From assembly GCA_030867685.1 (NCBI GenBank), contig JAQOWU010000007.1:806001-870000 (forward strand): 64,000 bases of DNA, given 5' to 3'. The notes beneath the pieces are model-generated. The model did not search any database and was not told the origin of the DNA. It saw only the letters and a list, made by a program, of their open reading frames with translations. This DNA is from Wickerhamiella versatilis. Taxonomy: Eukaryota. Numbering within the stretch: the first letter of the stretch is position 1; each line of letters starts with the position of its first letter. The position numbers were made by a program, and so were the translations under genes. Below, one piece after another: positions 20,732 through 54,700 of this stretch.

Positions 20732-21139
20732 GCCGAACGTAAACAAACCCTGAGTAATCTGAATGATATACAGAAAAAATTCGGTTTAACATAAAATTCA
20801 CGCAAAACTGGAGACTAAAGTAGAAAAGATTAAACTCAATTTCGATTTTGAACTTGGGAAAAAGATTATTTGCCATGTGAAAGTATTCAAGCCGTGCATA
20901 AGCAAGAGGACGAAAAAAAAAGAGAAAAAGTTAGAGGCTAGATTAGGTTGATGATCGATCATTAATTTTTCTAATATTTTTTGAAATCTATTTTTTCATA
21001 CCACGATTTAGACTGCTAGGGGGCGACACACCAGCCCGTTTATTTTCTGCCCAATGTCACTGGGCACGTGATCATGATCGAGTAAGGAAAAAAATTACCT
21101 AACTGGATTCTTTCACCTGGCTGCACCTTTGTTAAAACC

Positions 21140-22808
21140 ATGGGACAAGCCCGAAAAGAAAAGAACAGGGTTGCTAAGGGCGCTGAGAAGAATGAATCCA
21201 GTCAGCTGAAGACGGGCAACCTCAGGGTGAAGGGTGAAAACTTTTACCGTGATGCGGCGAAGGTTCGTAAAATCAATATGTACAAGGGTGGCAAGGCCCA
21301 ACGCAATGCTAAGGGTGAAATTACCAAGGCTGCGTCGCTTCAGGCCACTGATATCCCCACAGCTCGTGTCGAGCCGAACAAGCGTTGGTTTGGCAACACA
21401 CGAGTCATCTCACAAGATGCTCTTGCGCACTTCCGCGACGCTGTCTCCAATGTGCAGCAAGACTCCTATCAGGTGCTTTTGCGACGTAATAAGCTTCCTA
21501 TGTCTCTTCTGGAAGAGTCGACAAAAACGCCAACAGTAGATATCACTGAGACAGAAAGCTATGCATCAACATTTGGTCCCAATGCTCAACGAAAGAAGCC
21601 GCGGATGGCCGTATCCTCCCTCGAGGATCTGTCCAGTTCCGTGGAGAAGGAGCATAAGGACTTCAATGACCGTGATGATATGCAGGGCGAGTATGAAGAA
21701 AACTATGGCTCAGCTAATGGTGATAGTGTTTTCAGAAAAGGCCAATCTAAGCGAATCTGGAACGAACTTTATAAAGTTATTGATTCCTCAGATGTTTTGC
21801 TTCATGTTCTAGATGCGCGAGACCCTCAGGGAACACGCTGCCGCGCGGTTGAGAACTACCTGAAAAAGGAGGCGCCTCACAAGCACCTCGTTTTCGTTAT
21901 TAACAAATGTGACCTTGTCCCTACGTGGGTATCGGTAAGTATAAAATTCTAACAACCCATCGTTAAGTCAAGGCAGCGTCTTAGTTTGTCGTGGCGTTGC
22001 CTGTTACAACTTTGGGAGATCAGACGTGTTGGTACACCTATGGATCTCCGTTTTGGAGGTCCCGTACCAATCACGTATTGGTTTCTAGAGTTGGACAGGG
22101 ACTTTTTCGATGCCCTTTCCTTAGTCGAAACCGAACAAATACTAACTCTTACAGGCTGCTTGGGTGAAAATACTCTCCAGAGATTACCCGACTCTTGCTT
22201 TTCATGCCTCTATAACAAACTCATTTGGCAAAGGTGCGCTCATTCATATCCTACGCCAGTTTGCCTCCCTGCATAAGGATCGAAAGCAAATTAGTGTAGG
22301 GTTGATAGGCTATCCGAATGCAGGAAAAAGTTCGATCATCAACACATTGCGCTCCAAAAAGGTGTGCACGGTTGCTCCCGTCCCTGGTGAAACCAAGGTA
22401 TGGCAGTATATCACGTTGATGCGTCGGATTTTCCTCATTGATTGCCCTGGGATTGTCCCGCCCAGTGCAAACGACACGGAGGCGGACATTTTGTTTAAAG
22501 GTGTGGTGAGGGTCGAGAACGTTAGCGATCCTGAACAGTTTATTCCTGCATTGCTTGATAGGGTCGAGCGCAAATATATCGAGAGGACGTATGACGTCAA
22601 GGATTGGAATACTCCTGGTGAATTCTTAGAACTACTTGCCCGTCGCCAAGGCAAGCTCCTGAGAGGGGGCGAGCCAGATGAGAAGACTGTGGCAAAGTCA
22701 GTGCTAAATGATTTCAACAGGGGCCGCATTCCTTGGTTTGTACCACCTCCCCGTGATAATGACCCTGCCGAGCAGAAGAAGGAAGGCGTTAAGGATCAGA
22801 AATCATAG
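21140..22808 (+). CDS. NOG2: Nucleolar GTPase Nog2, two exons (21140-21934, 22155-22808)
   Basis: [43 protein letters not shown] and DCPG motifs. Splicing restores [14 protein letters not shown]. Confidence 0.97.
21935..22154 (+). other. Spliceosomal intron (220 nt, phase 0) of NOG2
   Basis: GTAAGT donor at 21935, TACTAAC branch at 22140-22146, CAG acceptor ending 22154, in-frame join. Confidence 0.95.
21955..22140 (+). ncRNA. SNR191: Intronic H/ACA snoRNA snR191/U19 homolog
   Basis: Hairpin 1 pocket AGTCA/GTTAC and 3' hairpin pocket AGAGT/TAGT match LSU helix 69 GUAACUAUGACUCU. H box AGATCA at 22017-22022 and ACA at 22135-22137, each about 14 nt after its pocket. Confidence 0.9.
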
Positions 22809-23316
22809 CTGAAATGCTAATTAAATTTCTTATTTATATATATAGAAGAGTCTAGTTAGCCTTCTCCTCAGGTATCTGCTGTGATACACTCTGGGTAAGC
22901 ATGTGGAGCCAGTCATTATGGGGTGATTCTTAGTTTGCAGCCTAAAACTGTATATAAACATTTCCGAGAGTGCACTCCTCGCTATACTTTTTTTTGGTTT
23001 TTTTTTATTAGCTCACTTGTCACTTACGAAAATATTGGGTATGGGTATGGTAATATTTACGACAGGAATTAAGACCCTACTGCTTTTCGAAAAGAATTTT
23101 CAATAAAATTCAGGATAATATCGAGATTTCTCAGAGAATGTTATTATCTTAATGATGTGTCGACAAATCCACTGTTGATCTCTATCTGATGCTGTCCAGA
23201 TTGATATGTACCCCGCCCGGGGATATGCAAGTAACATCGCGAAAGTCACGTAAGTCACAGGGGTAAGGGCAAAATTGGGTATAAATCGAATTTTTGGGGT
23301 ATACCGCTGCTACAAA

Positions 23317-25368
23317 ATGATTTTTTATACCCTGTTACCATTCCTGATGGTGCAGTGCGCAGCGTTGTACGTTGGCACTGCTTGGTATCCGGAACAGTTC
23401 CCTATTTCAGCATATGATCAAGATCTAGATATGATGAAGGACGCAGGAATAAAGGTAATTCGTTTGGCAGAATTCTCCTGGAGCACTCTGGAGCCTTCTG
23501 AAGGCAATTATGACTTTTCTTGGTTGGATGCAGCTATCAATAAGGCTTCGGCCCGAGGCTTCAAGCTTGTTCTCGGCACACCGACATCCAGTGCTCCTGA
23601 ATGGGTCACAGAAAAGTATCCAGATACCCTGTTCGTTAATTCTTCATTTGTGAGACAGAGACATGGTTCTCGCGAACAATACAATTACCGCAGTGAGAAA
23701 TACCTGGAGCTGGGACGCAAGGTTGTCACTCAAATGGCGAGGCGCTATGCCAATAATACGAATGTGATTGGATGGCAGATTGATAACGAACTCAAGAATC
23801 CGTCCTTCGACCCCAGTACCTTGGAGCAATGGGCCAGCTGGTTGGAGGACAAGTACTCCACGATTGACAATTTGAATTCCAAATGGACCACTAGCTACTG
23901 GAGTCAAACATACCAAAACTTCAGTCAAATTCCACCAGGCATCAATCTAGGTGAAGGCCAGAACCCTGGCCTTATGTTGGATTGGGCGAGATTCACGAGC
24001 GATGGCTATCATGACTACGTTGCGAATCAAGTATCGGTAATTCGGAATTTTACAAAGGCCCAAAACTCCAGCCAATTCATTACGACGAATGCACTGCAGG
24101 ATCTCAGCACTAATAATTACTTCAACCCGCTCTCTGTTTATGACCAGCTGGATCTGGCGGCTTGGGACGACTACGTCTATCCCACGGACGACTATAACTA
24201 TGACTGGGTGGGAAACGCTTTTAAACATGATACCGTACGTGGGTACAAGGAAGGTAAGAATTTCTGGGTGATGGAGACGATGCCGCCATTTGTTGATTGG
24301 CAGGACGAAAATCTACCGTTGAGCCCGCAGGCCATGCGCACTTTTGCATGGCAGGCAGTGGGCAAAGGATCCGATGCCATACTCTACTGGCAATGGAGAA
24401 GTGCTGCGAATGGAGAGGAGACAACGCACGGAAGTCTGGTTGGAATCGACAACCACACGACACCATCGTATTACGAGGTTCAGAAGATCGCAAAAGAGTT
24501 TGAACAGGCATCATCTGCTATTGACGGGTCAAGTGTGAAAGCTAACGTGGCATTGATAAACGATTTCACTGATCGTGTTGCCTTGAGCACCCAGTCCCAG
24601 AACAAGAGGTTTATACCATTGAATGTGAGCCAAAACTTCTACAACCCGCTCCTGAAACATGCTCAAGTTGTGGATATTATCTCGACCTCACAGCCATTTG
24701 ACTCCTACGAACTCATAGTAGCCCCTTCGCTCTTTGTACTACCCCAGAATCTATCGGACCGGCTTGAGAAGTATATAAGGAATGGCGGTCATCTTGTGCT
24801 GGGTCCCCGCAGTGGTAGTAAGGATGAGTATAGTCGTCTGAATCCCCAAGGCCAACCAGGACCTTTGGCGGATACCCTCGGTAGCAAGGTGGACCTCTGG
24901 TTCTCAATTTCGAAGGCCAATGCATCACTATCGTCATCCTCTAATTCATATCTTAGTGGTGGAAATGCAACTATTTGGTCCGACAAGCTGAATGTGAAGA
25001 CTAATGACACAGAAATTGTTTTGACCTACGATGAGTTCAATGGCTGGTGTGATAATACACCTGCTGTGGTTACGAGGCCTGTCGGTAAAGGACGAATCAC
25101 GTATGTTGGCACTATTCTCGATGAGGATACGATTGAGGCACTAACAACATCGTGGCTGGCTGAAACCAGCGTTTCTGGCGTTCCTGTATCGGATGATATT
25201 GAGTTCACAGTCCGGGAGAAATCGGGCAAGAAGGTCTATATTATAATCAACCACGGCAAGTATACTCGACAGGTCCCACTTAAGCAGTCGTTGACGTCTG
25301 TCCTCACCAACACTACTACAAATAATACCGTGAAGCTTCAGCCGTACGGTGTGGAGGTCCTGGTATAA
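23317..25368 (+). CDS. Secreted beta-galactosidase, glycoside hydrolase family 42 (bacterial-type family)
   Basis: WYPEQ, AEFSWSTLEPSEG.YDF.WLD, LGTPT..AP.W, WQIDNE (acid/base), FWVME (nucleophile) and YWQWR..GEE..HG motifs. Hydrophobic signal peptide from ATG 23317; TATAAA at 23280. Confidence 0.92.
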   Translation: MIFYTLLPFLMVQCAALYVGTAWYPEQFPISAYDQDLDMMKDAGIKVIRLAEFSWSTLEPSEGNYDFSWLDAAINKASARGFKLVLGTPTSSAPEWVTEKYPDTLFVNSSFVRQRHGSREQYNYRSEKYLELGRKVVTQMARRYANNTNVIGWQIDNELKNPSFDPSTLEQWASWLEDKYSTIDNLNSKWTTSYWSQTYQNFSQIPPGINLGEGQNPGLMLDWARFTSDGYHDYVANQVSVIRNFTKAQNSSQFITTNALQDLSTNNYFNPLSVYDQLDLAAWDDYVYPTDDYNYDWVGNAFKHDTVRGYKEGKNFWVMETMPPFVDWQDENLPLSPQAMRTFAWQAVGKGSDAILYWQWRSAANGEETTHGSLVGIDNHTTPSYYEVQKIAKEFEQASSAIDGSSVKANVALINDFTDRVALSTQSQNKRFIPLNVSQNFYNPLLKHAQVVDIISTSQPFDSYELIVAPSLFVLPQNLSDRLEKYIRNGGHLVLGPRSGSKDEYSRLNPQGQPGPLADTLGSKVDLWFSISKANASLSSSSNSYLSGGNATIWSDKLNVKTNDTEIVLTYDEFNGWCDNTPAVVTRPVGKGRITYVGTILDEDTIEALTTSWLAETSVSGVPVSDDIEFTVREKSGKKVYIIINHGKYTRQVPLKQSLTSVLTNTTTNNTVKLQPYGVEVLV

Positions 25369-25490
25369 TGTAGAGACATGAGTTTACTGTTCACCTCACT
25401 TTGAACCAGTATGTAAAATTAAAAGATATGAAAAAATGTCTAAACTATATGCAAAGATTTTTAAGATCAGTATCCTTAGAGAAGCTCTCC

Positions 25491-26198
25491 TTATTGGCCT
25501 CTCTCCACTAAAATTTCGTTTATAAGTGGCAAAATACTACTGCCTCGCTGTAACGCGTCCTGAAATTTAGATCCGAGAACCTGAATATCACGAATCACTA
25601 AGTCGGTACCCTTCTTCCAATTAGGAGACTTCATATCACTCCGAGGCCACGAGAAGTCTCTCACTGAGCCAAATTTTCCACCAAGATTTGTGTCAACGAT
25701 CTCCAATTCATCGCTATTCTCAATGATGGGCTCTGGGCACCCTGGTGCTATGACATCGTTATGCGAGTCGTGAATACGGCATTGTTGACAATTGAAAACC
25801 AGCAGGCAGTCAACCACATTGGATATATATACAGGACCCTGAACATTAGTAGCGATCACCAGAGAATTGGACAAATTGGCGATTGTTAGAGAAGGTTTGG
25901 CTTCCAAAATTAGCTTGACCTCATTGCATGAACGGGTAGCCTGATTCTCAGATGCAGTAAAGGGCTTGTGCGCATTCCCAGATTCTGAATGGGTCGGCTG
26001 CGAGGAGGGGTTATGCGAGAATTTGAATCTACGCGGCTTGGTCCTAAGTCTTGAAACCGCCGCATCTAGCCCTGCCTCAAGCTTATCAACATCATATGAA
26101 ACGAGTTCGTCACGGTTCTTTCTAATATCATTACGGAGAGCTTCAGCATCGGATAGGGTGGTTAGATTTCGCAGGCGTGCTTCTAGCTGGCCTTCCAT
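25491..26198 (-). CDS. Tubulin-specific chaperone C
   Basis: KPRRFKF, GPVYI, CQQCRIHDS, PIIENS and VRDFSWP..SPNW motifs. ATG at 26198. Confidence 0.88.
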   Translation of the reverse strand: MEGQLEARLRNLTTLSDAEALRNDIRKNRDELVSYDVDKLEAGLDAAVSRLRTKPRRFKFSHNPSSQPTHSESGNAHKPFTASENQATRSCNEVKLILEAKPSLTIANLSNSLVIATNVQGPVYISNVVDCLLVFNCQQCRIHDSHNDVIAPGCPEPIIENSDELEIVDTNLGGKFGSVRDFSWPRSDMKSPNWKKGTDLVIRDIQVLGSKFQDALQRGSSILPLINEILVERGQ

Positions 26199-26233
26199 CA
26201 CCACATTACGTCATCAACAGCGTTCCTTTGGCC

Positions 26234-26509
26234 ATGGAAGAAGCAATCGGTGAGATACAGCAGCTGGTTGCGGACTTCGGCACTGTCGACTATGTGGGCC
26301 AGCAGGATTGTAAGCGTTTGACTGACTATGCATCCTATGGAGGTCTCGCGCTGTCCATCTTTGCAGGACTCGTATCTAAACGATTCGATGTTGCCGTCTT
26401 CGGTGCAGTAGCAAGCATTGCAGTGGTGATGGTTCTCTGCCTGCCCTGGCCAGCTTATAAAAAGCATCCTTGTACGTTCAGGGAGCCAAAGGGTCTCCGG
26501 TTAAACTGA
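26234..26509 (+). CDS. SPC1: Signal peptidase complex subunit 1
   Basis: VDYVGQ, two TM helices and LPWPAYKKHP. ATG at 26234. Confidence 0.85.
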   Translation: MEEAIGEIQQLVADFGTVDYVGQQDCKRLTDYASYGGLALSIFAGLVSKRFDVAVFGAVASIAVVMVLCLPWPAYKKHPCTFREPKGLRLN

Positions 26510-26894
26510 ACAAAAGTGGTACCTGTTTCTCAACTGCTGTCCCTGCCTCCCCTGCTGCTATAACGGGGTTAGTGCAAGATGCAATAAAATATATGCTACT
26601 CTCTATAACATATTAATCCCATTGCTAGTCTGCACTGTACTGGTTACACCACCCTGTATAGGGAGCTGGTTGCCCGCGGCCTCGCCTCGAGCCTGCCAAT
26701 CATATTTCTCCTATATATATGGCCTTGACAAATTTAAGTAAAAGTGAGGGGTTTAGAACGTATTACATTGCATTAAAGAGAGTATAACAGCGTGATAAAT
26801 ATTAGGGTTTACCCCGCAGGGTAGATGGATGACCCGCTGCTCAAGTGGGCTATTATAAAGCGAGGCCTCCCAGTATTAGCCAGGTTCAATTTCC

Positions 26895-28922
26895 ATGGGT
26901 TCTACAGAGTTGCTCGCACAGGAGCGTGCTGCCGCTTCATTTCCCGTACGGGAATTGACCTATTTTCTTGATGGTAGTCCCGAGCGGACCGAAAAGCTGG
27001 AGAGACTAAAAACTCAAATCGAAAGGACGCCTGCATTCACCAATGACGACTATTATGAGCTTCCGGGCGAGCATTTGAAACTCCGGGAACGTACAATGGT
27101 GAAAGTCGCGGCCATGGCTGAGATGATCAGCCAACAGAACACTGAGGGAGACATCCGAGATTTGATGATGCACCTCTCCGTCCTTGATCCCGGGGCATAT
27201 ACCCGGGTAGGTGTGCATTTTGGGCTATTCTTAGCTGGTGTTCGAGGTTCCGGTACGTCTCAGCAGCTGAATCACTGGGTCTCCATAGGGGCAGGTTCTC
27301 TCAGAAATTTCTTCGGATGCTTCGGAATGACCGAATTGGGACACGGATCTAACGTTGCCGGTGTCGAGACAACAGCCACCTTTGATAAAGACACGGATGA
27401 GTTTGTGATTAACACCCCTTCCGTAACCGCCACCAAGTGGTGGATTGGTGGTGCAGCGCATACCGCGACTCATTGCCTTGTGTTTGCGAGACTAATCGTC
27501 GATGGCAAGGACTACGGTGTCAAGAATTTTGTGGTACCCCTTAGAGACAGGCATGACTGGTCCCTACTGCCAGGTATCGCGATTGGTGACATCGGCAAGA
27601 AAATGGGACGGGATGGTATTGACAACGGCTGGATTCAATTCTCAAGTGTGCGGATCCCAAGACAGTACATGATGATGAAGTACTCAAAGGTCTCGCGGGA
27701 TGGCAAAGTCACCCAACCGCCACTGGCCCAGCTGGCGTATGGTGCTCTTATTGGCGGACGAGTTTCCATGGTCCTGGATTCTTTTGTATGCGCCAGTCGC
27801 GTCCTTACCATAGCCATTCGGTACGCTGCAGTCCGTCGGCAGGGATCGGTTAAAAAAGGTGAGGAAATCCGCTTGCTTGACTACGCCTATCATCAACGTA
27901 GACTGCTTCCACTGTTAGCATACTGCTACGCAATGAAAGCAGGAGGCGTGAATTTGGTAAGTATTCAGGAGTCGGCCACTTCCAAGCTCGCATCAACCGA
28001 CCCCAAGTCACCGGAAATGGCATCTGCCGTCAGCGACGTTAAGGAGCTTTTCTCGGTCAGTGCAGGCCTAAAGGCGTTTTCAACGTGGGGCACTGCGCAG
28101 ATCATTGACGAATGCCGCCAAGCCTGCGGTGGGCATGGATACTCTGCATACAATGGCTTTGGTCAGACCTTTAATGACTGGGCTGTTCAATGTACATGGG
28201 AGGGTGATAACAACGTCTTAACCCTGAGTGCAGGTCGTGCACTGCTGCAGACCGCGCTTAGCTTGCGTAAGGGCAAGTCAGTTGGCGAATCTGGTGCATA
28301 CATTGGTGTCGAGCATAAGCCACTGGGTGCAGATTCTCTTGAGGACCCAAATGCCCTAAATAGGGGCTTTCGCTACGTGGCTGCCCGAGCAATCAACGAT
28401 ATGACCGACTCTTTTGAAAAGTATAGTGGCAGCTTCGAAGAAAAACTCGAGAAATTGTCGAAACAGAGGTTTAATGCCGCTCGTCTGCATTCCCGGGCAT
28501 TCCTGGTCGCAGCCTTCTTCAAGAACATCAGCAGCGCAAAGAAGGAGCTCCAGCCTGTACTTCTAGACCTAGCGACACTTTTCGCGTTGTGGTCAATTGA
28601 ACAAGAAAGCACGGCATTCCTGCAATACGGATTCTTGCCTCATGACAGACTGAATTTCGTCTCAGAGCTTGTTGATAAATATTGTGGTAAGATTCGGGTC
28701 CAGGCAGTTGCACTATGTGATGCCTTCAACTGGTCTGACTTCTTTATCAACTCTCCTATAGGAAATTACGATGGTGATGTCTATAACAATTACTTCCAGA
28801 AGGTGACCTCCTCGAACTCACGGCTTGACACCAAGGCTCCGTACTATGAAACCGTAATGAAGCCTTTTTTCAAGCGGCCCGAGCCAGAATCACCTGATCT
28901 AGAGGATCTAGAGGACGACTAG
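26895..28922 (+). CDS. POX: Peroxisomal acyl-CoA oxidase
   Basis: GCFGMTELGHGSNV, KWWIG, GRDGIDNGWI, CRQACGGHGY and CTWEGDNNVL motifs. Confidence 0.96.
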   Translation: MGSTELLAQERAAASFPVRELTYFLDGSPERTEKLERLKTQIERTPAFTNDDYYELPGEHLKLRERTMVKVAAMAEMISQQNTEGDIRDLMMHLSVLDPGAYTRVGVHFGLFLAGVRGSGTSQQLNHWVSIGAGSLRNFFGCFGMTELGHGSNVAGVETTATFDKDTDEFVINTPSVTATKWWIGGAAHTATHCLVFARLIVDGKDYGVKNFVVPLRDRHDWSLLPGIAIGDIGKKMGRDGIDNGWIQFSSVRIPRQYMMMKYSKVSRDGKVTQPPLAQLAYGALIGGRVSMVLDSFVCASRVLTIAIRYAAVRRQGSVKKGEEIRLLDYAYHQRRLLPLLAYCYAMKAGGVNLVSIQESATSKLASTDPKSPEMASAVSDVKELFSVSAGLKAFSTWGTAQIIDECRQACGGHGYSAYNGFGQTFNDWAVQCTWEGDNNVLTLSAGRALLQTALSLRKGKSVGESGAYIGVEHKPLGADSLEDPNALNRGFRYVAARAINDMTDSFEKYSGSFEEKLEKLSKQRFNAARLHSRAFLVAAFFKNISSAKKELQPVLLDLATLFALWSIEQESTAFLQYGFLPHDRLNFVSELVDKYCGKIRVQAVALCDAFNWSDFFINSPIGNYDGDVYNNYFQKVTSSNSRLDTKAPYYETVMKPFFKRPEPESPDLEDLEDD

Positions 28923-32109: not shown

Positions 32110-33612
32110 TTAAATGGGCTGGCCAAGATAGTTCAAGAGCTTTCCCTGATAAGGAATGGTCTCATTGATCGGGTTCAGGCTTGTGGTGGCATTGTAGTCC
32201 CACCAGAATGTGAGGTGAGAAGGCACTTCCGAGGTCAAATTGCATACCTTTGAGAACTCGCGTCCGGAGATACGGGAGTTAATGTATTCATTATAATCAT
32301 TCAATGGACAAGACAGTCCTGGTCCGGACATACAATCATCCAAGGGTACAACAGCCTCGTTCACGACCACTCGAACGAAATGCTGGGTTTGCGTGCTATT
32401 AGGTGCAGAACTGTTAGTTATATTAGCAACGGTATTGTTGAAACCAAGCGGATACTCATTCACATATTCTTCACCAGGTATGTCTGCTGATGAGGCACAC
32501 GAGAGTCGTTCAAAAATTATACGCCCACCCTGTGGAACCACATCTGCGACGTGATAGCCAGGGTTGGACTGTATTTTAGAGTCATTAAACTGGGGAGACG
32601 GGTCCAAGCCCAATGCAGCCTGTACAGGTGCAATGTCGGTGTCATGTGAAAAGTTGACGACCAGAGGCTCTCCTTGCTCTGGACCTTCAAGAAGCATGGT
32701 ACGGCTGGCATTTACAAAGTTGGTACCACGGGCCAAAGCATCAGGGGAACCAGGACCATCAGCGCACCAGAATTTCGCTGAGAGATGATGTTCAAACGCT
32801 ACCCAGGCGTCGCTGGGGAATACCGAGATCCATGGCGAGCGTCCCCGGACATTGAGCTCGTATGCAGCCATTTCCATAAGAGTTTGAATGTCTTTATATG
32901 TGAGCTTTACCCCGTACTGCTGATTCCAGTCCTGGGCGAGATCACGGAACGGTTTGTAGTCGCGCTTGCTCTTGCACGGTCCTTCAGTGATAGAGGAATT
33001 TTGGCAGGTTGGCTTTAGCGAATTTGCACCCTGGTCAGTTGTCTCGGGTATAATGTTAAGAGCAGCCTGGGTAGCGTTATATCCGAAAAATCCTTCGATG
33101 AAACGTCTTGCGGTGTCAACAACGCGGAGTGCTCCACTGGCAAAAACAGGGGTCATTTCGTCCAAGTCAACTAGATCCCCATACCGTTCTGCGTACATCA
33201 TTCCGCTATAGTAGCCCTCATGAAGTCCATTGTAGGGCCCTATGGTCGACTCCTCGCCAAGCCAGCCGCTACTAGGCTCATCAAATGGCACCCAGCTGTT
33301 GTAGAATGCCAAGTCGCCAGTGAATTTGCCCTTTTTGGCATTAAGTTTCGACAATGATTCCGCAAAATCATCGGCCTTGCCAGGTGAGGCATGTCGGGCA
33401 CCGTGTCTCATCAGGATGATAGCCTGATCAACAACGCATCCACTAGGGGGATCGCGGGAAATACCAACGCCTCTACGATTGGAATACGGGCCTGCGTTTC
33501 CGGTGTACTTTAGTACGTTGTAGTTATCGTCGAAATCTTGGGGATAAGGCTTATTTGGGTTGTATGCACCAACGCAGGAGAGAGCAGCTACAAGCACAAG
33601 ACTCGACTTCAT
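32110..33612 (-). CDS. Secreted histidine acid phosphatase/phytase (Pho5-like)
   Basis: Signal peptide, RHGARH catalytic motif, SHD motif and many N-glycosylation sequons. Confidence 0.92.
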   Translation of the reverse strand: MKSSLVLVAALSCVGAYNPNKPYPQDFDDNYNVLKYTGNAGPYSNRRGVGISRDPPSGCVVDQAIILMRHGARHASPGKADDFAESLSKLNAKKGKFTGDLAFYNSWVPFDEPSSGWLGEESTIGPYNGLHEGYYSGMMYAERYGDLVDLDEMTPVFASGALRVVDTARRFIEGFFGYNATQAALNIIPETTDQGANSLKPTCQNSSITEGPCKSKRDYKPFRDLAQDWNQQYGVKLTYKDIQTLMEMAAYELNVRGRSPWISVFPSDAWVAFEHHLSAKFWCADGPGSPDALARGTNFVNASRTMLLEGPEQGEPLVVNFSHDTDIAPVQAALGLDPSPQFNDSKIQSNPGYHVADVVPQGGRIIFERLSCASSADIPGEEYVNEYPLGFNNTVANITNSSAPNSTQTQHFVRVVVNEAVVPLDDCMSGPGLSCPLNDYNEYINSRISGREFSKVCNLTSEVPSHLTFWWDYNATTSLNPINETIPYQGKLLNYLGQPI

Positions 33613-37174: not shown

Positions 37175-38737
37175 TTACAGCACAAGCCATGCTGAGCTAC
37201 CAATAAGAAATAGCACTACAACTGCTGTCAAAACACCTGCACCCGCCTTGTCGCCGGTATCAAGGTCGAGCCTACGGGCCGTAATATTCTTAGTACTGTT
37301 TGTTCCCGCTTCACCGTAGCCATAAACAGCACCCTGGCTGGACTCCACTTGGCCGTCGCCTCCGCTTGAGTTCGACGGCTTGTACAGATCCGGAAGGTCA
37401 GCGGCCCTGTAAATCTGAGACTTGTCCGGGGCAAGAATGGCGTTGAATGCAGCTAGGGCCGAGATTTGTTCTCCAAGACCAGAATTGCCATCAAATCCCG
37501 AATGAGTCCAATTGAGCCCGCAGGTGAAGCCATCACGTCCGCCATCGCAGGAAAACGATGCGGCCTGCGCAGTGGTCGACATTCGGCTCCACATAAGATC
37601 CCTTGCTGCGGGGAGTATACGCATGGTATTTCCAATGAGCTGGGCAAAAACAGCCTTGAAACATCGCTGGTCAGTCGTGCAGGTCAATCTACCAGACGGG
37701 CCCAGTGACATGCATGCTGGTTCATATAATACAGAGTCTGTTGACCATTGATTATTTCCAAAGAATACTGAGCCATATTCGGAGATTGGCGTCACGGTGC
37801 GGCTCCATAGGCCCTGTACTCGGTTCCACCACTTCTCGTCCTTCGTCTGGTTGTAGAGGTAGGCTGCTCCGCTGATCATCATTCCCTGATTATAAGTCCA
37901 CTCGTAAATGGTTACGTTGGAACAGTTTTGTTCCATACCAGCACCATCGTAGACCCGGATCTTCCAATCCTCCGGATTCTCAGATGTCCTATTTGCATAA
38001 TCCAAGAGCCTACAATCACCACCGCCCGGTGTACAGGTTTCTCCTGTATCCTCCATCCAGTCCCAGACCTTTTCCGCCCAATGCACATAGGTGGCGTTGT
38101 TGGTGAACCGCGAGAGGCGGGCCGCAAGGTTGAAGAGTGCACCATTGCTCACAGTGTTTTTGTAGTTGTACCCAGCGTTCCACTGATAAATCTGCCAGCG
38201 TAGCCCGCCATTACACTCAGACGTATCCCAGCGGCTCACCATGGCGGCGAATGTGGACTGGGCATAGTACAGCCAGGTCGGGTGCGAGGTGTTGGCACGC
38301 GTGAAGTTCACCTCTGCTGCCTGCATTGCGGCCAGGCCCCACATTGCCTCATCGTCATTACCTTCGACAGATGTCTGATTTTGTGTCATGAAATTCATAT
38401 CATCTCCAGCCTGGAACGTAATACTGTCGACGATATATTGAGTGAGGGTATCGTTGCCGGTAACAGCAGCCCACTCAACAAGAGCAGCGGTTGAAACACC
38501 GCCCTCATACCAATAGTAAGGCTGTGAGGGCATGCCTGGGACTGTCCCCAATATCTTGGTTTTGTTCCTGGTGAGCCCCTCCTGCTGCGCGTACGGGAAG
38601 TAGTCCAGGAGACCTAGGATGACAAGGTTGCATGCTTCCTCCACCTGAGTCTGGTTATTTGGGTCCATTTGAATTGCGGAACAGCCGGCAAAAAATGCCG
38701 ACACCGCAAGAATCCATTGGATCACTGCCCGACCCAT
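37175..38737 (-). CDS. GH76 GPI-anchored mannan endo-1,6-alpha-mannosidase (Dfg5/Dcw1 family), copy 1
   Basis: Signal peptide, PYYWYEGG, EGNDD, CNGGLRWQI, YKNTVSNG, WTYNQG, GLGEQISAL and C-terminal GDKAGAGVLT plus hydrophobic tail. Confidence 0.95.
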   Translation of the reverse strand: MGRAVIQWILAVSAFFAGCSAIQMDPNNQTQVEEACNLVILGLLDYFPYAQQEGLTRNKTKILGTVPGMPSQPYYWYEGGVSTAALVEWAAVTGNDTLTQYIVDSITFQAGDDMNFMTQNQTSVEGNDDEAMWGLAAMQAAEVNFTRANTSHPTWLYYAQSTFAAMVSRWDTSECNGGLRWQIYQWNAGYNYKNTVSNGALFNLAARLSRFTNNATYVHWAEKVWDWMEDTGETCTPGGGDCRLLDYANRTSENPEDWKIRVYDGAGMEQNCSNVTIYEWTYNQGMMISGAAYLYNQTKDEKWWNRVQGLWSRTVTPISEYGSVFFGNNQWSTDSVLYEPACMSLGPSGRLTCTTDQRCFKAVFAQLIGNTMRILPAARDLMWSRMSTTAQAASFSCDGGRDGFTCGLNWTHSGFDGNSGLGEQISALAAFNAILAPDKSQIYRAADLPDLYKPSNSSGGDGQVESSQGAVYGYGEAGTNSTKNITARRLDLDTGDKAGAGVLTAVVVLFLIGSSAWLVL

Positions 38738-39189: not shown

Positions 39190-40752
39190 CTAGAACACGA
39201 GCCATGCCGAGCTACCAATAAGGAACAACACCACAACTGCTGTCAAAACACCTGCACCCGCCTTATCACCCCCACCAATGTCGAGCTTGTGGGCCGTAAC
39301 AGTCTTATTACTCGATCCCGCGTCACCGAAGCCATAAACAGCACCCTGGCTGGACTCCACCTGGCCGTCGCCTCCGCTTGAGTTCGACGGCTTGTACAGA
39401 TCCGGAAGGTCAGCGGCCCTGTAAATCTGAGACTTGTCCGGGGCAAGAATGGCGTTGAACGCGCCCAGGGCCGAGATTTGCTCACCGAGGCCAGAATTGC
39501 CATCATAGCCCGAGTGGGTCCAATTCAACCCGCAGGTGTGTCCATCATATCCACCGTCGCAGGAAAACGATGCGGCCTGCGCAGTGGTCGACATCTTGCT
39601 CCACATGAGATTTTTTGCCCCGGGGAGCATATGCATGGTATTTCCAATGAGCTGAGTGAAAACAGCCCTAAAGCATCGCTGGTCGTTCGTGCAGGTCAAT
39701 CTGCCGGTCGCTCCCAGCGTCATGCATGCTGGTTCATATAATACAGAGTTCTCTGACCATGCATTGTTACCAAAGAATACTGAGCCATCTCCCGAAGGTA
39801 ATGGCGTCACTGTGCGGCTCCATAGGCCCTGGACCCGGTCCCACCATTTCTGGTCCTTCGTCTGGTTGTAGAGGTAGGCTGCTCCGCTGATCATCATTCC
39901 CTGATTATACGTCCACTCGTAGACAGTTACCTCGGAACAGTTTTGGTCCATACTAGCACCATCAAGGACCCTGATCTTCCACTCACTCGGTTCTTCAGAA
40001 GTACTGTTTCCATAGGTCAAGAGCCTACATTCACCATCACCCTGTGAGCAGGTCTGCCCGGTATCTTCCATCCAGTCCCAGATCCTGTCCGCCCAATGCA
40101 CATAGGTAGCGTTGTTCGTGAAGCGCGAAAGGCGAGCTGCAAGGTTGAAGAGTGCACCATTGCTCACCGAATTCTTGTAGTTGTATCCAGAGTTCCACGG
40201 GTAAATCTGCCACCGCACGCCACCATTGCACCCAGATGTATCCCAGCGGCTAGCCATGGAACTGAACGTGGACTGGGCATAGTACAGCCAGGGAGGGTAC
40301 GAGCTGTTAGCACGCGTGAAGTTCCGCTCCGCAGCTTGCATCGCGGTTAACCCCCACATTGCCTCGTCATCATTACCTTCGACGGATGTCTGGTTATTCG
40401 TCATGAAATTCTTGTCATCCCCGCCTTGGAAAGTAATACTGTCCAGAATGTAGTCGGTGAAGGTGTCATTACCAGTTAGGGTGGCCCACTCGACAAGAGC
40501 AGAGGTAGCAACACCACCTTCGTACCAATAATAAGGCTCCTGGGGCATACCTGGAACGCCTCCTGTTACATCGGAACCCCCAGTGAGTCCTATTTGTTTG
40601 GCGTATGGGAAGTAGTCCAACATGCCCTGAATGACAAGGCTGCAAGCTTGCTCCACCTGTGACTGGTTGTTTGGGTCCATTTGAATTGCAAAAGAGTTGG
40701 CGAAGAATGCCAGAGCTACGAGAACCCACCTCATTGCAGGTCCTCGGTTCAT
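39190..40752 (-). CDS. GH76 Dfg5/Dcw1 family, tandem copy 2
   Basis: Same motifs and same 520-aa length as copy 1. Confidence 0.95.
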   Translation of the reverse strand: MNRGPAMRWVLVALAFFANSFAIQMDPNNQSQVEQACSLVIQGMLDYFPYAKQIGLTGGSDVTGGVPGMPQEPYYWYEGGVATSALVEWATLTGNDTFTDYILDSITFQGGDDKNFMTNNQTSVEGNDDEAMWGLTAMQAAERNFTRANSSYPPWLYYAQSTFSSMASRWDTSGCNGGVRWQIYPWNSGYNYKNSVSNGALFNLAARLSRFTNNATYVHWADRIWDWMEDTGQTCSQGDGECRLLTYGNSTSEEPSEWKIRVLDGASMDQNCSEVTVYEWTYNQGMMISGAAYLYNQTKDQKWWDRVQGLWSRTVTPLPSGDGSVFFGNNAWSENSVLYEPACMTLGATGRLTCTNDQRCFRAVFTQLIGNTMHMLPGAKNLMWSKMSTTAQAASFSCDGGYDGHTCGLNWTHSGYDGNSGLGEQISALGAFNAILAPDKSQIYRAADLPDLYKPSNSSGGDGQVESSQGAVYGFGDAGSSNKTVTAHKLDIGGGDKAGAGVLTAVVVLFLIGSSAWLVF

Positions 40753-51790: not shown

Positions 51791-54700
51791 ATGCTCAATT
51801 ATATGCCAGAGTTTTATTGGCTACCGCTAGTGCTACCACTAGTTTCTACTGTATCTGGGACACTTATGCCCGCTTCAAGCTTCGAAGTGAAGGAAGAAGG
51901 CCCAATCGAAAAGTACTCAGGTGATTATCACCACTGGAGTCTCTCTCAGAATGGACAGGTATATATAAAGCGTGAAGAATATCACACTCTCGTACCAACT
52001 GGAGAGGACATGACCATGCCGGTGCCCACATCAGCGATTAGTTCAATCAGTTCAAATGGGAGCGCTCCTAGCACCTTGAACGGAACAAGCACCCTTTCAG
52101 TGCCCGTATACGCTAGCTCGGAAGCTTCAAGAGTATCAGAGTCATCATCAGGCTTGTCGTCAGGTTCCATCTATACAGGCTCAGTATCATCCAGTTCAGG
52201 TGAAATACCCGTAACAACATCTAATGCAACTTTGCTAACGTCCAATTCTGGGTCGATAGGAACTGCATTGAATCCTACCAGCTCCTCTAATACGTCCTTG
52301 CCATCATCTAACCCTGAATCTTCGGAAACAGAACTGTATCCCACAAGCTCTCCCAATACGAGTTTCACAACTTCACAACCTCTCTCATCCAGGTCAGGAT
52401 CTGCTCCTATAAGTCCTCTTAATACAACTTTGGCAACTTCTGGTACTTTGTCAATTGGAACAGGATTACCATCTACAGGTAGTAACTCAACGTCGCCAAC
52501 TTCTAGCCCAGTATCAAGAGACGGGGCTCCTACGAGCTCCACTAATACGAGTCTGACCCCTTCAGGTACTATTTCATCTGGAGCAGGATTGGCCCCAACT
52601 GGGTCCACTAATACAACACTTACAGACTCAGGTTCTGTGTCACCTGTGACAGGATTATCATCCACAGGTATCAACTCTACATTACCAAGCTCTGACCTTG
52701 TATCGGTAGGAACCAAAGAAACTCCTATAAGCACCTTGAACAGGACCCTGAGAGCCTCAGATTCCGCAACCCCTCAAACTGGATTGTCTTTCACAGGCTC
52801 TGGTAATACAACCTTGCCAACTTCGGGTCCAATTTCTCCCGGAACTGAAGCGACTCATACAAATTCTTTCAACAAGACACTGGGAACTTCAGACCTTAGT
52901 TCACCCAAGACAGGCTTGGCCTCCACAGGCTCCACTAATACAACTTCAGCAACTTCGGCTCCTGTATCTGGCCCTATATCACATGGTGCAAGTGTGTCTT
53001 TGAATGCCTCATCGCAAGTTACTAGGATTAGTGGCTCTGACTTTATCACCAGTTTCCCATCTCCTTCCCTTAATACATCGATCAGCTCTGGCGAAGCTGG
53101 TGTGCTAAGTAATTCTACTTTCGCAGGACTAAGCGCTGTATCTACTGAAGCAGGAGCCACTGCGTCCGAGGGACTACCGATTTCCGGTGCTGAAACCAGG
53201 TCAGGCTCACCAGGAACTAACGGAACAACCACCTATTATACTACCTACTACCCTTCTCCTACAACATTTACATATGGGTCTTCCACTTACACTGTATCAG
53301 GACCCAAGACATTGACTCTCCCAGGAACTGCTGGATCTGGCGGGTTGTCCAACTCGGAAACAGAGGGAGGATTGATCACAAGCTCAGGTATTTCAGCGAC
53401 TGCCGGGGCAGGAGAAACAGGATCAGGCACTCCAGAAGGTAGTGGATCAGGAGCACTGGTATCAGGAGCCACTTGGTCTGGAAGATCGCCAATATTTGGC
53501 ACAGGTAATGGCAATGGTACTGGTTCTGGGTCTGAGTTCACGGGAAAAGATGGCCACACCTACTACACTACTTACTGTCCATCGCCTACAACATTTACAT
53601 ATGGATCTTCCACTTATACCGTGTCTGGACCCAAGACATTGACTCTCCCAGGAACTGCTGGATCTGGCGGGTTGTCCAACTCGGGAACAGAAGCAGGATT
53701 GATCACAAGTTCGGGTATTTCGGCTATTGCCGGGGCAGGAGAAACAGGATCAGGTACACTAGAAGGTAGTGGATCAGAAGCCACTTGGTCTGGAAGATCG
53801 CCAACATTTGGAACAGGTAATGGTACTGGTTCTGGGTCTGAGTTCACGGGAAAAGATGGTCACACCTACTACACTACTTATTGTCCTTCGCCTACGACGT
53901 TTACACATGGATCTTCGACTTACACCGTGTCTGGACCCTCAACGTTGACTCTCCCAGGAACTGCTGGCTCTGAGGGCGAGCCCGAGTCGAGTCCTAAGGC
54001 AAGCTCAGGCATTTCAGAAACATCAGATTCAGGTGCATCAGTATCAGTAAGTTCTGGCTCTGGAGAAGCGGAGTCAGGCTCGCCGGAAGCGACTGGTTCA
54101 GGAACTTTCGGCTTAGGAGTGACGGGACCGGGAGCAAAGGGATCAGGTGCACCTGAGGCCACTGGCTCAGAAGCATCAGTATCAGGTAGTGTTGGCTCTG
54201 GAGAAATGGGATCAAGTGCAGAATCTACAGGTTTGGGAGCTTCAGGATCAGCTACGCCCGAGGGTACTGGCTCAGTAGCTTCAGGGTCAGGAGTGACGGA
54301 ATCAGGAGTAGAAGGATCAGGTACACCTGAGGCTACTGGCTCAAGAGCGTCAGAATTAGGAGTATCTTGGTCCGGAATATCACCTGGTTCTGGGTCTGGT
54401 TTTACTGGAACAGATGGCCACACCTACTATACCACTTACTGTCCATCGCCTACAACATTTACATATGGATCTTCGACTTATACTGTGTCAGGACCCTCAA
54501 CGCTGACTCTCCCAGGCTCTGATGGCTCTGGAGGGGTGCCCAATTCAAGTCCTAAGACAGGCACAGGCATGCCAGACGCAACAGGATCAAGAACCTTAGG
54601 AGCTGCAGGACCAGGAGAAACGGAGTCTGACACTCCGGAAGCAACGGGTTCAGAGGAGTCAGACTCAGGTGCTGCTTGGTCTGGAGGATCGCCAACATCT

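What the first reader, a model, noticed from the sequence alone, without database searches (positions are those of the whole stretch)
23317..25368. Bacterial-family GH42 beta-galactosidase re-tooled as a secreted yeast glycoprotein
Established: GH42 is a mainly bacterial/archaeal and mostly intracellular family, whereas yeast beta-galactosidases are typically GH2 or GH35. Seen: an intronless, complete GH42 with both catalytic Glu, a ~16-aa signal peptide, at least 13 N-x-S/T sequons and a TATA box. It lacks the Cys zinc-cluster residues after the NE motif that many GH42s have, and sits between housekeeping NOG2 and TBCC. Inference: horizontal acquisition followed by adaptation to the secretory pathway.
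Basis: partly seen in the sequence, partly recalled or inferred. Interest (0 to 1): 0.78.

Follow-up and report, generated by a model that had tools for sequence, protein, structure and literature searches.

The report
Bacterial-origin GH42 beta-galactosidase in yeast
A budding yeast carries and expresses a beta-galactosidase gene of a bacterial type that it most likely took from bacteria long ago and now appears to secrete as a sugar-coated enzyme, which is a nice but not unprecedented example of gene transfer into yeasts.

Summary
Window 23317-25368 (+) is an intact, intronless 683-aa GH42 with all three Pfam domains and both catalytic Glu (E158, E320). It has 13 N-x-S/T sequons and a hydrophobic N-terminus, and lies between NOG2 and a TBCC gene. 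Two assemblies carry the same junctions, and poly(A) RNA of another strain covers the gene.

All nearest relatives that carry a name are bacterial, at 44-48% identity (Acidobacteriota, Xanthomonas, Steroidobacteraceae). An ML tree nests the yeast protein inside that clade (99/97). Four very large searches found nothing between 53% and about 99% identity. Codon usage is fully yeast-like, so the transfer is old.

The interpretation needs correcting. The donor clade is itself exported: 114 of 119 nearest relatives have a signal-like N-terminal extension. That clade also already lacks the zinc Cys cluster. So the enzyme was pre-adapted to life outside the cytoplasm. The yeast-specific changes are a short eukaryotic leader, gained sequons and a long branch.

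Secretion is inferred, not shown: no SignalP was available and the transcript 5' end is unresolved. Bacterial relatives often sit beside rhamnosidase, fucosidase and pectin-type genes, which hints at plant galactosides as well as lactose.

Verdict: a new member of a known kind, of moderate interest.

The parts
23317..25368 (+). GH42 beta-galactosidase coding sequence, 683 aa plus TAA, no intron
   Evidence: ORF. Three Pfam GH42 domains. PDB sequence hits down to 4.5e-95. AF2 model with pLDDT 83 and TM 0.83-0.91 to solved GH42s. RNA coverage without joints.
23317..23364 (+). Codons 1-16, putative eukaryotic signal peptide (MIFYTLLPFLMVQCAA, cleavage guessed after A16)
   Evidence: Hydrophobic core with Kyte-Doolittle mean 2.12. 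Residues 1-14 have pLDDT below 50 and the first barrel strand starts at residue 18. The ATG context ACAAAATG has A at -3. The cleavage site follows the -3/-1 rule applied by eye; SignalP was not available.
23383..24507 (+). Catalytic (beta/alpha)8 domain (Pfam PF02449, residues 23-397), with acid/base E158 (23788-23790) and nucleophile E320 (24274-24276)
24541..25173 (+). GH42 middle (trimerisation) domain, residues 409-619
   Evidence: 133 bits.
25198..25362 (+). GH42 C-terminal beta-sandwich domain, residues 628-682
   Evidence: 40 bits.
22809..23316 (+). Upstream intergenic region and promoter. It holds a T-run near 22990-23008 and TATAAAT at 23280-23286.
   Evidence: Sequence. RNA depth is zero in 22940-23153 and begins in bin 23154-23367. 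The function of the TATA motif was not tested, and it may lie too close to the estimated 5' end.
25369..25490 (.). 122-nt spacer between the convergent stop codons of GH42 and TBCC. RNA covers it on both strands.
   Evidence: bin 25294-25507 has depth about 16 on each strand in X24.
21140..22808 (+). Left flank: NOG2 (482 aa). Exon 1 is 21140-21934, the intron is 21935-22154 (GT..AG) and exon 2 is 22155-22808.
   Evidence: NGP1NT domain. The splice joint was seen in 9 reads of X24 and 120 of X21. The joined frame has a single terminal stop.
25491..26198 (-). Right flank: TBCC-domain (tubulin cofactor C-like) gene, 235 aa
   Evidence: Pfam TBCC, 50.6 bits.

Best explanation
The gene encodes a functional retaining GH42 beta-galactosidase, with E158 as acid/base and E320 as nucleophile. 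An ancestor of this budding yeast, which is Dipodascales-like by its acyl-CoA oxidase, acquired it by horizontal transfer from a bacterium.

The donor belonged to the exported subfamily of GH42 that is common in soil Acidobacteriota and also occurs in Xanthomonas, Steroidobacteraceae and some Alphaproteobacteria. That subfamily already works outside the cytoplasm and already lacks the zinc Cys cluster.

In the yeast the gene sits alone between NOG2 and a TBCC gene. It has lost the bacterial leader and linker, has a short eukaryotic-type signal peptide, and has gained about 13 N-glycosylation sequons and yeast codon usage. It is transcribed as an unspliced polyadenylated mRNA.

The product most likely enters the ER, is N-glycosylated and is released to the cell wall or medium. 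There it would split terminal beta-galactose from lactose and/or plant galacto-oligosaccharides, so that the cell can take up the monosaccharides.

Shown: gene integrity, family membership, bacterial affinity, chromosomal linkage, transcription.
Inferred: direction and age of the transfer, secretion, glycosylation, substrate.
For: Family:
- Three GH42 Pfam domains.
- 15 GH42 PDB chains matched at E <= 1e-56.
- Both catalytic Glu aligned to 1kwg.
- The AF2 model matches solved GH42s at TM 0.83-0.91.

Bacterial affinity:
- Among the best 120 of 5328 hits, every named protein is bacterial, at 44-48% identity.
- In the 1.84-billion representative library the protein is its own 50% cluster. The next hits are 628 bits (a cluster with Steroidobacteraceae members) and 536 bits (with a Brevundimonas member), then 481 bits or less.
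- The best 80 loci from species-representative prokaryote genomes are all bacterial, mostly Acidobacteriota, at 39-46%.
- The careful ML tree of 49 rows puts the yeast row inside a 26-row clade (UFBoot 99 / SH-aLRT 97). That clade is nested in clades of 28 (99/96), 30 (98/92), 35 (99/93) and 36 rows (100/100).

Restricted distribution:
- No hit lies between 53% and the protein's own cluster in the near-length search, the shorter-protein search (164 hits) or JGI metagenomes (best 80 of 597, all 49% or less).
- By contrast, the neighbouring ACOX has unnamed relatives at 77, 66 and 64%.

Not contamination:
- One 177-kb contig of an isolate run covers 20800-27200 with 0 differences.
- A 15.7-kb contig of a food-metagenome run from another study covers 21519-27200 with 3 differences.
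- RNA of a strain 95-99% identical covers NOG2, GH42 and TBCC.

Expression: depth is about 10-35 in a poly(A) run and a second RNA run, with no joints in the gene.

Selection: of the 15 listed SNPs in the gene, 9 are synonymous.

Host-like coding:
- Codon usage ranks closest of 24 window genes to the pool of the others (r 0.92), against r 0.39-0.54 and GC3 0.74-0.87 for five bacterial homologues.
- CTG codons fall on conserved Leu columns in 8 of 16 cases, and on no conserved Ser or Ala column.

Secretory marks:
- Hydrophobic leader.
- Sequon density is 1.90 per 100 aa. The window's four secretory ORFs (acid phosphatase-like, two GH76, one Ser/Thr-rich ORF) have 2.36, and its 19 other ORFs have 0.29.
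- The homologues average 1.33 sequons, range 0-5.
- 114 of 119 sister-clade proteins carry signal-like extensions.
Against: - The yeast branch is long (1.55 changes per column against a median of 0.31). treekit flags its amino-acid make-up as unlike the rest of the alignment, so its exact place is unsure. Within the 26-row clade its position is unresolved.
- Most hits are unnamed, so their bacterial origin rests on clustering with named ones: the best 119 other hits collapse to 8 groups at 72% identity.
- GH42 modules are reported in a few filamentous fungi (passages of PMC3652786 and PMC5064400). None could be fetched for the tree.
- No compositional trace of foreign origin remains, so direction and date rest on phylogeny alone.
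- Secretion: no signal-peptide predictor was available.
- The leader has no charged n-region.
- From depth alone, the mRNA 5' end falls roughly at 23290-23340, which brackets the ATG at 23317. A transcript starting downstream would begin at M11 and lack the leader.
- The sequon excess over the protein's own composition is modest (51 of 2000 shuffles).
- Only 40 of 171 variant places were listed, so the 9:6 synonymous to non-synonymous count is partial. It is looser than NOG2 exon 1 (14:2).
- X1 and X9 are each flagged as a possible source of the window. Since they differ from each other, at most one can be.
Confidence: 0.7

Rival explanations
1. The gene was transferred from bacteria and is functional, but the product stays inside the cell. 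The hydrophobic N-terminus would not be used as a signal peptide, or the mRNA would start downstream so that translation begins at M11. The sequons would then be unused by-products of the shift to an Asn/Ser/Thr-rich composition.
For: - The depth-based estimate of the 5' end brackets the first ATG.
- There is no charged n-region.
- Asn is 6.9% and Ser+Thr 16.9% in the yeast protein, against 3.9% and 9.4% in the homologues. With that composition 7.5 +/- 2.4 sequons are expected by shuffling.
- Most GH42s are cytoplasmic: 98 of 133 distant representatives have 12 residues or fewer before the first strand.
Against: - The first ATG has a good yeast context (A at -3, ACAAAATG), whereas M11 has C at -3.
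- The sister clade is exported.
- Sequon density matches the window's secretory ORFs and is 6.5 times that of its non-secretory ORFs.
- Only two Cys remain, one of them in the leader.
Confidence: 0.15
2. The yeast obtained the gene from another fungus, or another eukaryote, that had earlier taken it from bacteria. The long branch would reflect time spent in eukaryotes.
For: - GH42 modules occur in a few fungi, for example Penicillium arizonense and P. rubens (passages).
- The yeast branch is 2-3 times longer than its bacterial sisters, and the gene is fully ameliorated.
Against: - No fungal name occurs among the best 120 hits, although the same database holds many fungal proteomes.
- Beyond the yeast protein's own 50% cluster, only two representative clusters score above 481 bits, and their named members are all bacterial.
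- The shorter-protein search and the metagenome scan found no intermediate.
Confidence: 0.1
3. Vertical inheritance: an ancestral fungal GH42 was kept in this lineage and lost almost everywhere else.
For: - Retention of ancestral genes otherwise known from filamentous fungi has been argued for Geotrichum candidum (mentioned in a passage of PMC8254220).
- Codon usage is fully native.
Against: - The protein is nested several supported nodes deep among bacterial sequences.
- Its closest relatives at 44-48% are bacteria, while other GH42 subfamilies are about 30% identical.
- No yeast or other fungal relative above 53% turned up in any search.
Confidence: 0.04
4. Bacterial contamination or a chimeric assembly.
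For: None found.
Against: - Contigs from two studies carry the same junctions.
- RNA from a divergent strain covers the gene and both flanks, with unbroken depth from the gene into TBCC.
- GC3 and codon usage are yeast-like.
- The Asn/Ser/Thr-rich composition is unlike the GC-rich bacterial homologues.
Confidence: 0.01

Closest known systems
Exported GH42 beta-galactosidases of Acidobacteriota, Xanthomonas, Steroidobacteraceae and Ideonella (annotated only as 'beta-galactosidase'; no characterised member was seen in these calls)
   Same: - Same three-domain architecture, with full-length alignment over 98% of the query at 44-48% identity.
- Same D-N-E and WVMET catalytic motifs.
- Same absence of the four zinc Cys.
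- Located outside the cytoplasm, by leader sequence.
   Different: - The bacterial proteins have 30-74-residue N-terminal extensions, most with a basic n-region (116 of 119) and an AxA motif (112 of 119), often followed by a conserved Q-A-T-x-Y linker. The yeast has a 16-residue leader without charge and no linker.
- The yeast has 13 sequons against a mean of 1.3.
- The yeast has six short insertions, a long branch, and a host gene context instead of glycan-degradation loci.
Structurally solved GH42 enzymes: Halorubrum lacusprofundi Bga (6lvw), Thermus thermophilus A4 beta-galactosidase (1kwg), Rahnella sp. R3 (5e9a), Geobacillus Gan42B (4oif)
   Same: The fold matches (TM 0.83-0.91) and the catalytic Glu pair aligns.
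   Different: - Sequence identity is 23-29% over the structural alignments.
- In the printed alignments 6lvw and 1kwg start within 3 residues of the first barrel strand, so they have no leader.
- 1kwg and 6lvw carry the Cys cluster after the NE motif, and the yeast protein does not.
Known yeast and mould lactases: Kluyveromyces lactis LAC4 (GH2, intracellular) and Aspergillus secreted GH35 lactases (recalled, not from a call)
   Same: Same expected reaction, hydrolysis of beta-galactosides. The Aspergillus enzymes are also secreted glycoproteins.
   Different: Different CAZy families and folds. The only GH35/GH2-type signals here were sub-threshold Pfam side hits in bacterial relatives.
Bacterium-to-yeast transfers of metabolic enzymes in Saccharomycotina (for example six candidates in Blastobotrys adeninivorans, passage of PMC4022394)
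   Same: A single enzyme gene of bacterial affinity, inserted between conserved host genes, intronless and expressed.
   Different: No paper found by the searches names a GH42 among them. 'GH42' with 'Saccharomycotina' gave 1 paper, a false match to GenBank numbers. 'GH42' with 'yeast' and 'horizontal gene transfer' gave 34 papers, of which 20 were listed, and none by title or abstract concerns a yeast GH42.

Membership tests
Glycoside hydrolase family 42 (CAZy GH42; Pfam PF02449 + PF08532 + PF08533) | Three-domain architecture: catalytic domain, middle (trimerisation) domain and C-terminal domain | tested here: met
   All three Pfam models score above their curated cut-offs: 357, 133 and 40 bits.
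Glycoside hydrolase family 42 (CAZy GH42; Pfam PF02449 + PF08532 + PF08533) | Acid/base Glu in the N-E motif and nucleophile Glu about 160-170 residues later (E141 and E312 of T. thermophilus A4 beta-galactosidase; that these are the catalytic residues is recalled) | tested here: met
   E158 aligns with E141 and E320 with E312 of 1kwg. Both are invariant in alignment A1.
Glycoside hydrolase family 42 (CAZy GH42; Pfam PF02449 + PF08532 + PF08533) | (beta/alpha)8 barrel fold with the GH42 accessory domains | tested here: met
   The AF2 model has pLDDT 83 and pTM 0.87. The Foldseek top hits are all GH42 structures, TM 0.83-0.91 over about 690 columns.
Glycoside hydrolase family 42 (CAZy GH42; Pfam PF02449 + PF08532 + PF08533) | Beta-galactosidase (or alpha-L-arabinopyranosidase) activity | not testable with these tools
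   Needs an enzyme assay. By sequence the protein is closer to beta-galactosidases (244-323 bits) than to the arabinopyranosidase 5xb7 (196 bits).
Glycoside hydrolase family 42 (CAZy GH42; Pfam PF02449 + PF08532 + PF08533) | Homotrimer (usual in the family, not strictly defining) | not testable with these tools
   Three copies (2049 residues) exceed the 1000-residue limit of complex prediction, so no job was sent.
Zinc-binding GH42 subgroup (Cys cluster after the NE motif, as in 1kwg) | Four Cys ligands (C106, C150, C152, C155 of 1kwg; numbering recalled) | tested here: not met
   The query has N123 and NELKNPSFDPS at those places. The bacterial sister clade lacks them too.
Prokaryote-to-fungus horizontally transferred gene | Nested with support inside a prokaryotic clade | tested here: met
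   Careful ML tree: support 99/97 for the 26-row clade, with four further supported enclosing nodes. Caveats: long branch, and fungal GH42s are not in the tree.
Prokaryote-to-fungus horizontally transferred gene | Absent from related eukaryotes, with patchy distribution | tested here: inconclusive
   No homologue between 53% and the protein's own cluster in four large searches. No eukaryotic genomes are held, so related yeasts and NOG2-TBCC synteny could not be inspected directly.
Prokaryote-to-fungus horizontally transferred gene | Physically linked to host genes and expressed | tested here: met
   Contigs of two studies span the gene and its flanks, and poly(A) RNA covers it.
Yeast secreted N-glycoprotein | Cleavable N-terminal signal peptide on the translated product | tested here: inconclusive
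   The leader is hydrophobic, residues -3/-1 are small, and the model is disordered at 1-14. No dedicated predictor was available, and the mRNA 5' end is not resolved relative to the first ATG.
Yeast secreted N-glycoprotein | N-glycosylation sequon density typical of secretory proteins | tested here: met
   1.90 per 100 aa, against 2.36 in 4 secretory ORFs and 0.29 in 19 non-secretory ORFs of the window. Occupancy was not tested.

The most novel reading that the evidence does not exclude
This would be the first eukaryotic, secreted, N-glycosylated GH42. It would be confined to a single yeast species (or a very narrow lineage) that turns up in food-fermentation metagenomes. The donor would be a soil Acidobacteriota-like bacterium whose copy served a pectin or rhamnogalacturonan-type degradation locus. 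The gene would give the yeast an extracellular route to lactose and/or plant galactan side chains that its relatives lack, making it a niche-defining trait.
Probability: 0.3. Interest if true: 0.6.

Novelty: new member of a known kind. Interest (0 to 1): 0.45.

Why it matters
Transfers of single bacterial enzyme genes into budding yeasts are known. This one is a clean, well-supported case involving a family that the literature searches did not link to Saccharomycotina.

It also shows which kind of bacterial gene transfers easily. The enzyme already worked outside the cytoplasm and had no metal-Cys cluster, so it needed only a new leader to function in the eukaryotic secretory pathway.

If secretion and activity are confirmed, a naturally glycosylated GH42 made by a yeast could interest lactose hydrolysis, galacto-oligosaccharide synthesis and plant-galactan use in food fermentations.

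Tried and rejected
- Whole-genome search of the window's own assembly: no genome is held. Copy number and other transferred genes could not be checked.
- Earlier findings of the scan by place, sequence and words: nothing to show.
- ESM Atlas: the rows shown were bacterial GH42 clusters and added nothing new.
- Literature searches for GH42 in yeasts: the one 'GH42 + Saccharomycotina' paper matched GenBank numbers only. The Brettanomyces beta-galactosidase expansion is by KEGG number, with no GH42 or transfer claim in the passages read.
- Supplements of PMC8254220, a CAZyme survey of yeast genomes, might list GH42 counts per species.
- tRNA genes as insertion landmarks: none in the window.
- A [WF]YPE-motif count in distant representatives was useless, because only 10 carry the motif. 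It was replaced by an alignment-based count.
- Naming the yeast species: the ACOX neighbours only place it near Blastobotrys, Sugiyamaella, Trichomonascus and Geotrichum at 57-59%. Geotrichum candidum itself is excluded, because Geotrichum ACOX hits are 57% or less. This was not pursued further.
- Runs X18 and X20, labelled as other organisms, hold 0.38 and 0.08 of the sampled words.
- A homotrimer prediction was not sent because of the size limit.
Full report
OBSERVATION

The window holds one long ORF at 23317..25368 on the + strand: 683 codons plus TAA, starting at the first in-frame ATG. Pfam finds the three GH42 models above their cut-offs:
- Glyco_hydro_42, 357 bits, residues 23-397.
- Glyco_hydro_42M, 133 bits, residues 409-619.
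- Glyco_hydro_42C, 40 bits, residues 628-682.

Fifteen GH42 chains of the PDB match at E <= 1e-56, the best being 6lvw at 4.5e-95. In the printed alignment with 1kwg, query E158 (in WQIDNE) pairs with E141 and query E320 (in FWVMET) pairs with E312. That these are the acid/base and nucleophile of that enzyme is my recollection of the literature. Both Glu are invariant in a 16-sequence alignment.

An AlphaFold2 model built on that alignment has mean pLDDT 83 and pTM 0.87. Residues 1-14 are below pLDDT 50 and the first strand is at 18-22. Foldseek returns only GH42 structures at the top, with TM 0.83-0.91.

There are 13 N-x(not P)-S/T sequons. TATAAAT lies at 23280-23286. CTG codons fall on conserved Leu columns in 8 of 16 cases and on no conserved Ser or Ala column, so the standard code applies.

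SURROUNDINGS

Upstream lies NOG2 (NGP1NT domain). Its 220-nt GT..AG intron (21935-22154) is confirmed by 9 reads in run X24 and 120 in X21, and the joined frame gives 482 aa. Downstream and convergent lies a TBCC-domain gene at 25491-26198. It is followed by a small, highly expressed SPC12 signal-peptidase subunit gene at 26234-26509 and an acyl-CoA oxidase gene. Further left is separase. There is no tRNA gene in the window.

The oxidase's best named relatives are Blastobotrys, Sugiyamaella, Trichomonascus and Geotrichum galactomycetum at 57-59%. Unnamed relatives reach 77, 66 and 64%. The host is therefore a budding yeast of the Dipodascales neighbourhood, and not Geotrichum candidum itself.

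IS IT REALLY IN THE YEAST, AND IS IT USED?

Four runs were laid on 20800-27200.
- A 177-kb contig of an isolate run (X1) covers the whole stretch with no difference.
- A 15.7-kb contig of a food-metagenome run from another study (X9) covers 21519-27200 with three differences.

Each run is flagged as a possible source of the window. As they differ from each other, at most one can be, so the junctions are seen at least twice.

Two RNA runs labelled with the same species (X24, poly(A)-selected; X21) come from a strain whose reads are mostly 95-99% identical. They cover the GH42 at a depth of about 10-35, against about 40-200 for NOG2. Depth is zero in 22940-23153 and unbroken from the gene into TBCC. 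No joint was reported inside the GH42. Contamination or chimerism is excluded, and the gene is transcribed as an unspliced mRNA.

Of the 15 variant places listed inside the gene, 9 are synonymous and 6 are not. In NOG2 exon 1 the count is 14 and 2. Only 40 of 171 places were listed, so this is a partial view. It fits purifying selection that is weaker than on NOG2. The window's protein equals database member P0121, and the cluster representative P0001 differs by K179E.

RELATIVES

- The near-length search found 5328 hits. Among the best 120, every protein with a name is bacterial (Paracidobacterium, Alloacidobacterium, Silvibacterium, Acidobacterium sp., many Xanthomonas, Ideonella), at 44-48% identity over 97-100% of the query.
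- The best 119 other hits collapse into 8 groups at 72% identity.
- The exhaustive search of 1.84 billion 50%-representatives shows the yeast protein as its own cluster. The next hits are 628 bits (46%) and 536 bits (44%), then 481 bits or less. Members of those two clusters are named Steroidobacteraceae and Brevundimonas.
- The shorter-protein search (164 hits) reaches at most 53%.
- The scan of species-representative prokaryote genomes gave 590 confirmed relatives among 597 candidates. The best 80 are all bacterial by record title, mostly Acidobacteriota, at 39-46%.
- The scan of JGI metagenomes gave 597 of 600, and the best 80 are all at 49% or less.

So nothing lies between 53% and the species' own alleles, whereas the neighbouring oxidase does have relatives at 64-77%.

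A careful ML tree was built from 49 rows: 28 ingroup and 21 outgroup representatives that I chose (LG+C20+F+G4 by PMSF). It places the yeast row inside a 26-row clade with support 99/97. In that clade it sits with the Steroidobacteraceae pair and a 23-row Acidobacteriota, Xanthomonas and Ideonella clade (98/99). The 26-row clade is enclosed by further supported nodes of 28, 30, 35 and 36 rows.

The order of the three lineages is unresolved. The yeast end branch is 1.55 against a median of 0.31, and its composition deviates from the rest, so the exact sister is unknown.

The closest clade is not intracellular. All 119 nearest bacterial hits have 30-74 residues before the first barrel strand. 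Of them, 114 have a hydrophobic core, 112 an AxA motif and 116 a basic residue ahead of the core; examples are. Among 133 more distant full-length representatives, 98 have 12 residues or fewer before that strand, and only 9 have a long hydrophobic extension. GH42 as a whole is indeed mostly cytoplasmic, but the yeast gene derives from the exported minority.

The same clade also lacks the Cys cluster (DNEYAxxSFDPEA). Its absence is inherited, not a yeast adaptation.

WHAT IS YEAST-SPECIFIC

The bacterial leader and its conserved Q-A-T-x-Y linker are gone. The yeast protein starts MIFYTLLPFLMVQCAA and then runs straight into the barrel.

Its hydrophobicity (2.12) is somewhat below that of the window's secretory proteins (2.3-3.0) and far above ACOX and TBCC (0.2-0.4). 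The ATG context is ACAAAATG, and the next in-frame ATG (M11) has C at -3.

The 13 sequons are gains:
- At 9 of the 13 sites, no homologue of 119 has a sequon in the same column. At the other four sites, 1-10 do.
- The homologues average 1.33 sequons, range 0-5.
- Density is 1.90 per 100 aa. The four secretory ORFs of the window (acid phosphatase-like His_Phos_2, two GH76, one Ser/Thr-rich ORF) have 2.36, and 19 other ORFs have 0.29.
- Part of the excess is compositional. Shuffles of the protein give 7.5 +/- 2.4, and 51 of 2000 reach 13.

Codon usage is the closest of 24 window genes to the pool of the others (r 0.92). Five bacterial homologues have GC3 0.74-0.87 and r 0.39-0.54. The transfer is therefore not recent.

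OPEN POINT ON SECRETION

From bin depths (2.75 in 23154-23367 against about 21 in the next bin for X24, and similar for X21), I estimate the transcript 5' end at roughly 23290-23340. That range brackets the first ATG. The TATA motif 37 nt upstream of the ATG may be too close to such a start to be the working element. No signal-peptide predictor was available. Secretion is thus a well-motivated inference, not a result.

LIKELY SUBSTRATE

I examined 8 of the 80 bacterial loci and passed 62 of the 90 long ORFs found in them to Pfam.
- Five loci have neighbours typical of plant-glycan breakdown: GH106 and GH78-type rhamnosidases, GH29 fucosidases, GH28, pectinesterase, an apiosidase-like protein, GH127, GH43-like proteins and TonB-dependent receptors.
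- One locus has a GH36 alpha-galactosidase next door.
- One has a GH1 enzyme and esterases.
- One has nothing of the kind.

From memory, such a set resembles pectin or rhamnogalacturonan degradation loci. This suggests that the ancestral job was trimming galactose from plant glycans. By sequence the yeast protein is closer to solved beta-galactosidases (244-323 bits) than to the GH42 alpha-L-arabinopyranosidase 5xb7 (196 bits). Whether the yeast uses it on lactose, plant galactosides or both cannot be told here.

COMPARISON AND NOVELTY

The protein is a GH42 by every sequence and fold criterion tested; activity and trimer state could not be tested.

It fits the known pattern of single bacterial enzyme genes inserted between conserved yeast genes. 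A passage of PMC4022394 reports six such candidates in Blastobotrys. GH42 modules are reported in only a few fungi (passage of PMC3652786), for example Penicillium arizonense and P. rubens (passage of PMC5064400).

My searches found no paper on a GH42 in Saccharomycotina. Supplements of the yeast CAZyme survey PMC8254220 could not be opened and may bear on this.

I rate the finding a new member of a known kind. It is interesting mainly as a clear example of an already exported bacterial enzyme needing few changes to enter the eukaryotic secretory route, and for its possible use in food and enzyme technology.

Noticed in passing
window 21956-22139 (+), inside the NOG2 intron 21935-22154: H/ACA snoRNA-like match (Rfam SNORA74, 44 bits, below the gathering score of 71, E 7e-9). 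It fills most of the NOG2 intron, so it is probably an intron-encoded snoRNA. From memory, S. cerevisiae NOG2 also hosts an H/ACA snoRNA in its intron.
   Followed up: partly
window 26234-26509 (+): A small 91-aa ORF with the SPC12 (signal peptidase 12-kDa subunit) domain (47.9 bits). It is the most highly expressed feature of the laid stretch (depth up to 385). Template-switch-like loose ends at 26208/26213 mark its 5' end. An extra C after 26672 occurs in 140 of 230 reads of X24 and 12 of 12 of X21, in its 3' region.
   Followed up: partly
window 37175-38737 (-) and 39190-40752 (-): Two neighbouring 520-aa GH76 (Dfg5/Dcw1-like mannosidase) genes on the same strand, with 15 and 12 sequons and similar N-termini. 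This is probably a tandem duplication.
   Followed up: no
window 51791-55069 (+): A 1092-aa ORF with no Pfam match. It has a hydrophobic N-terminus, 23 sequons, GC3 of only 0.34, and the most deviant codon usage of the 24 window genes. It is possibly a Ser/Thr-rich cell-wall protein.
   Followed up: no
window 32110-33612 (-): A histidine acid phosphatase (His_Phos_2) gene with a signal-like N-terminus and 12 sequons. It was used here as an internal example of a secretory protein.
   Followed up: partly
loci L004 (9971-12157) and L012 (15099-17147): In two of the bacterial loci a second GH42 gene lies near the matched one, directly downstream in L004 and about 5 kb away in L012. The exported GH42 therefore occurs in paralogous copies within glycan-degradation loci.
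   Followed up: no
runs X18 and X20: Runs labelled as two other organisms hold 0.38 and 0.08 of the sampled words of 22300-26300. This could mean a close relative or a mixed culture carrying part of the stretch.
   Followed up: no
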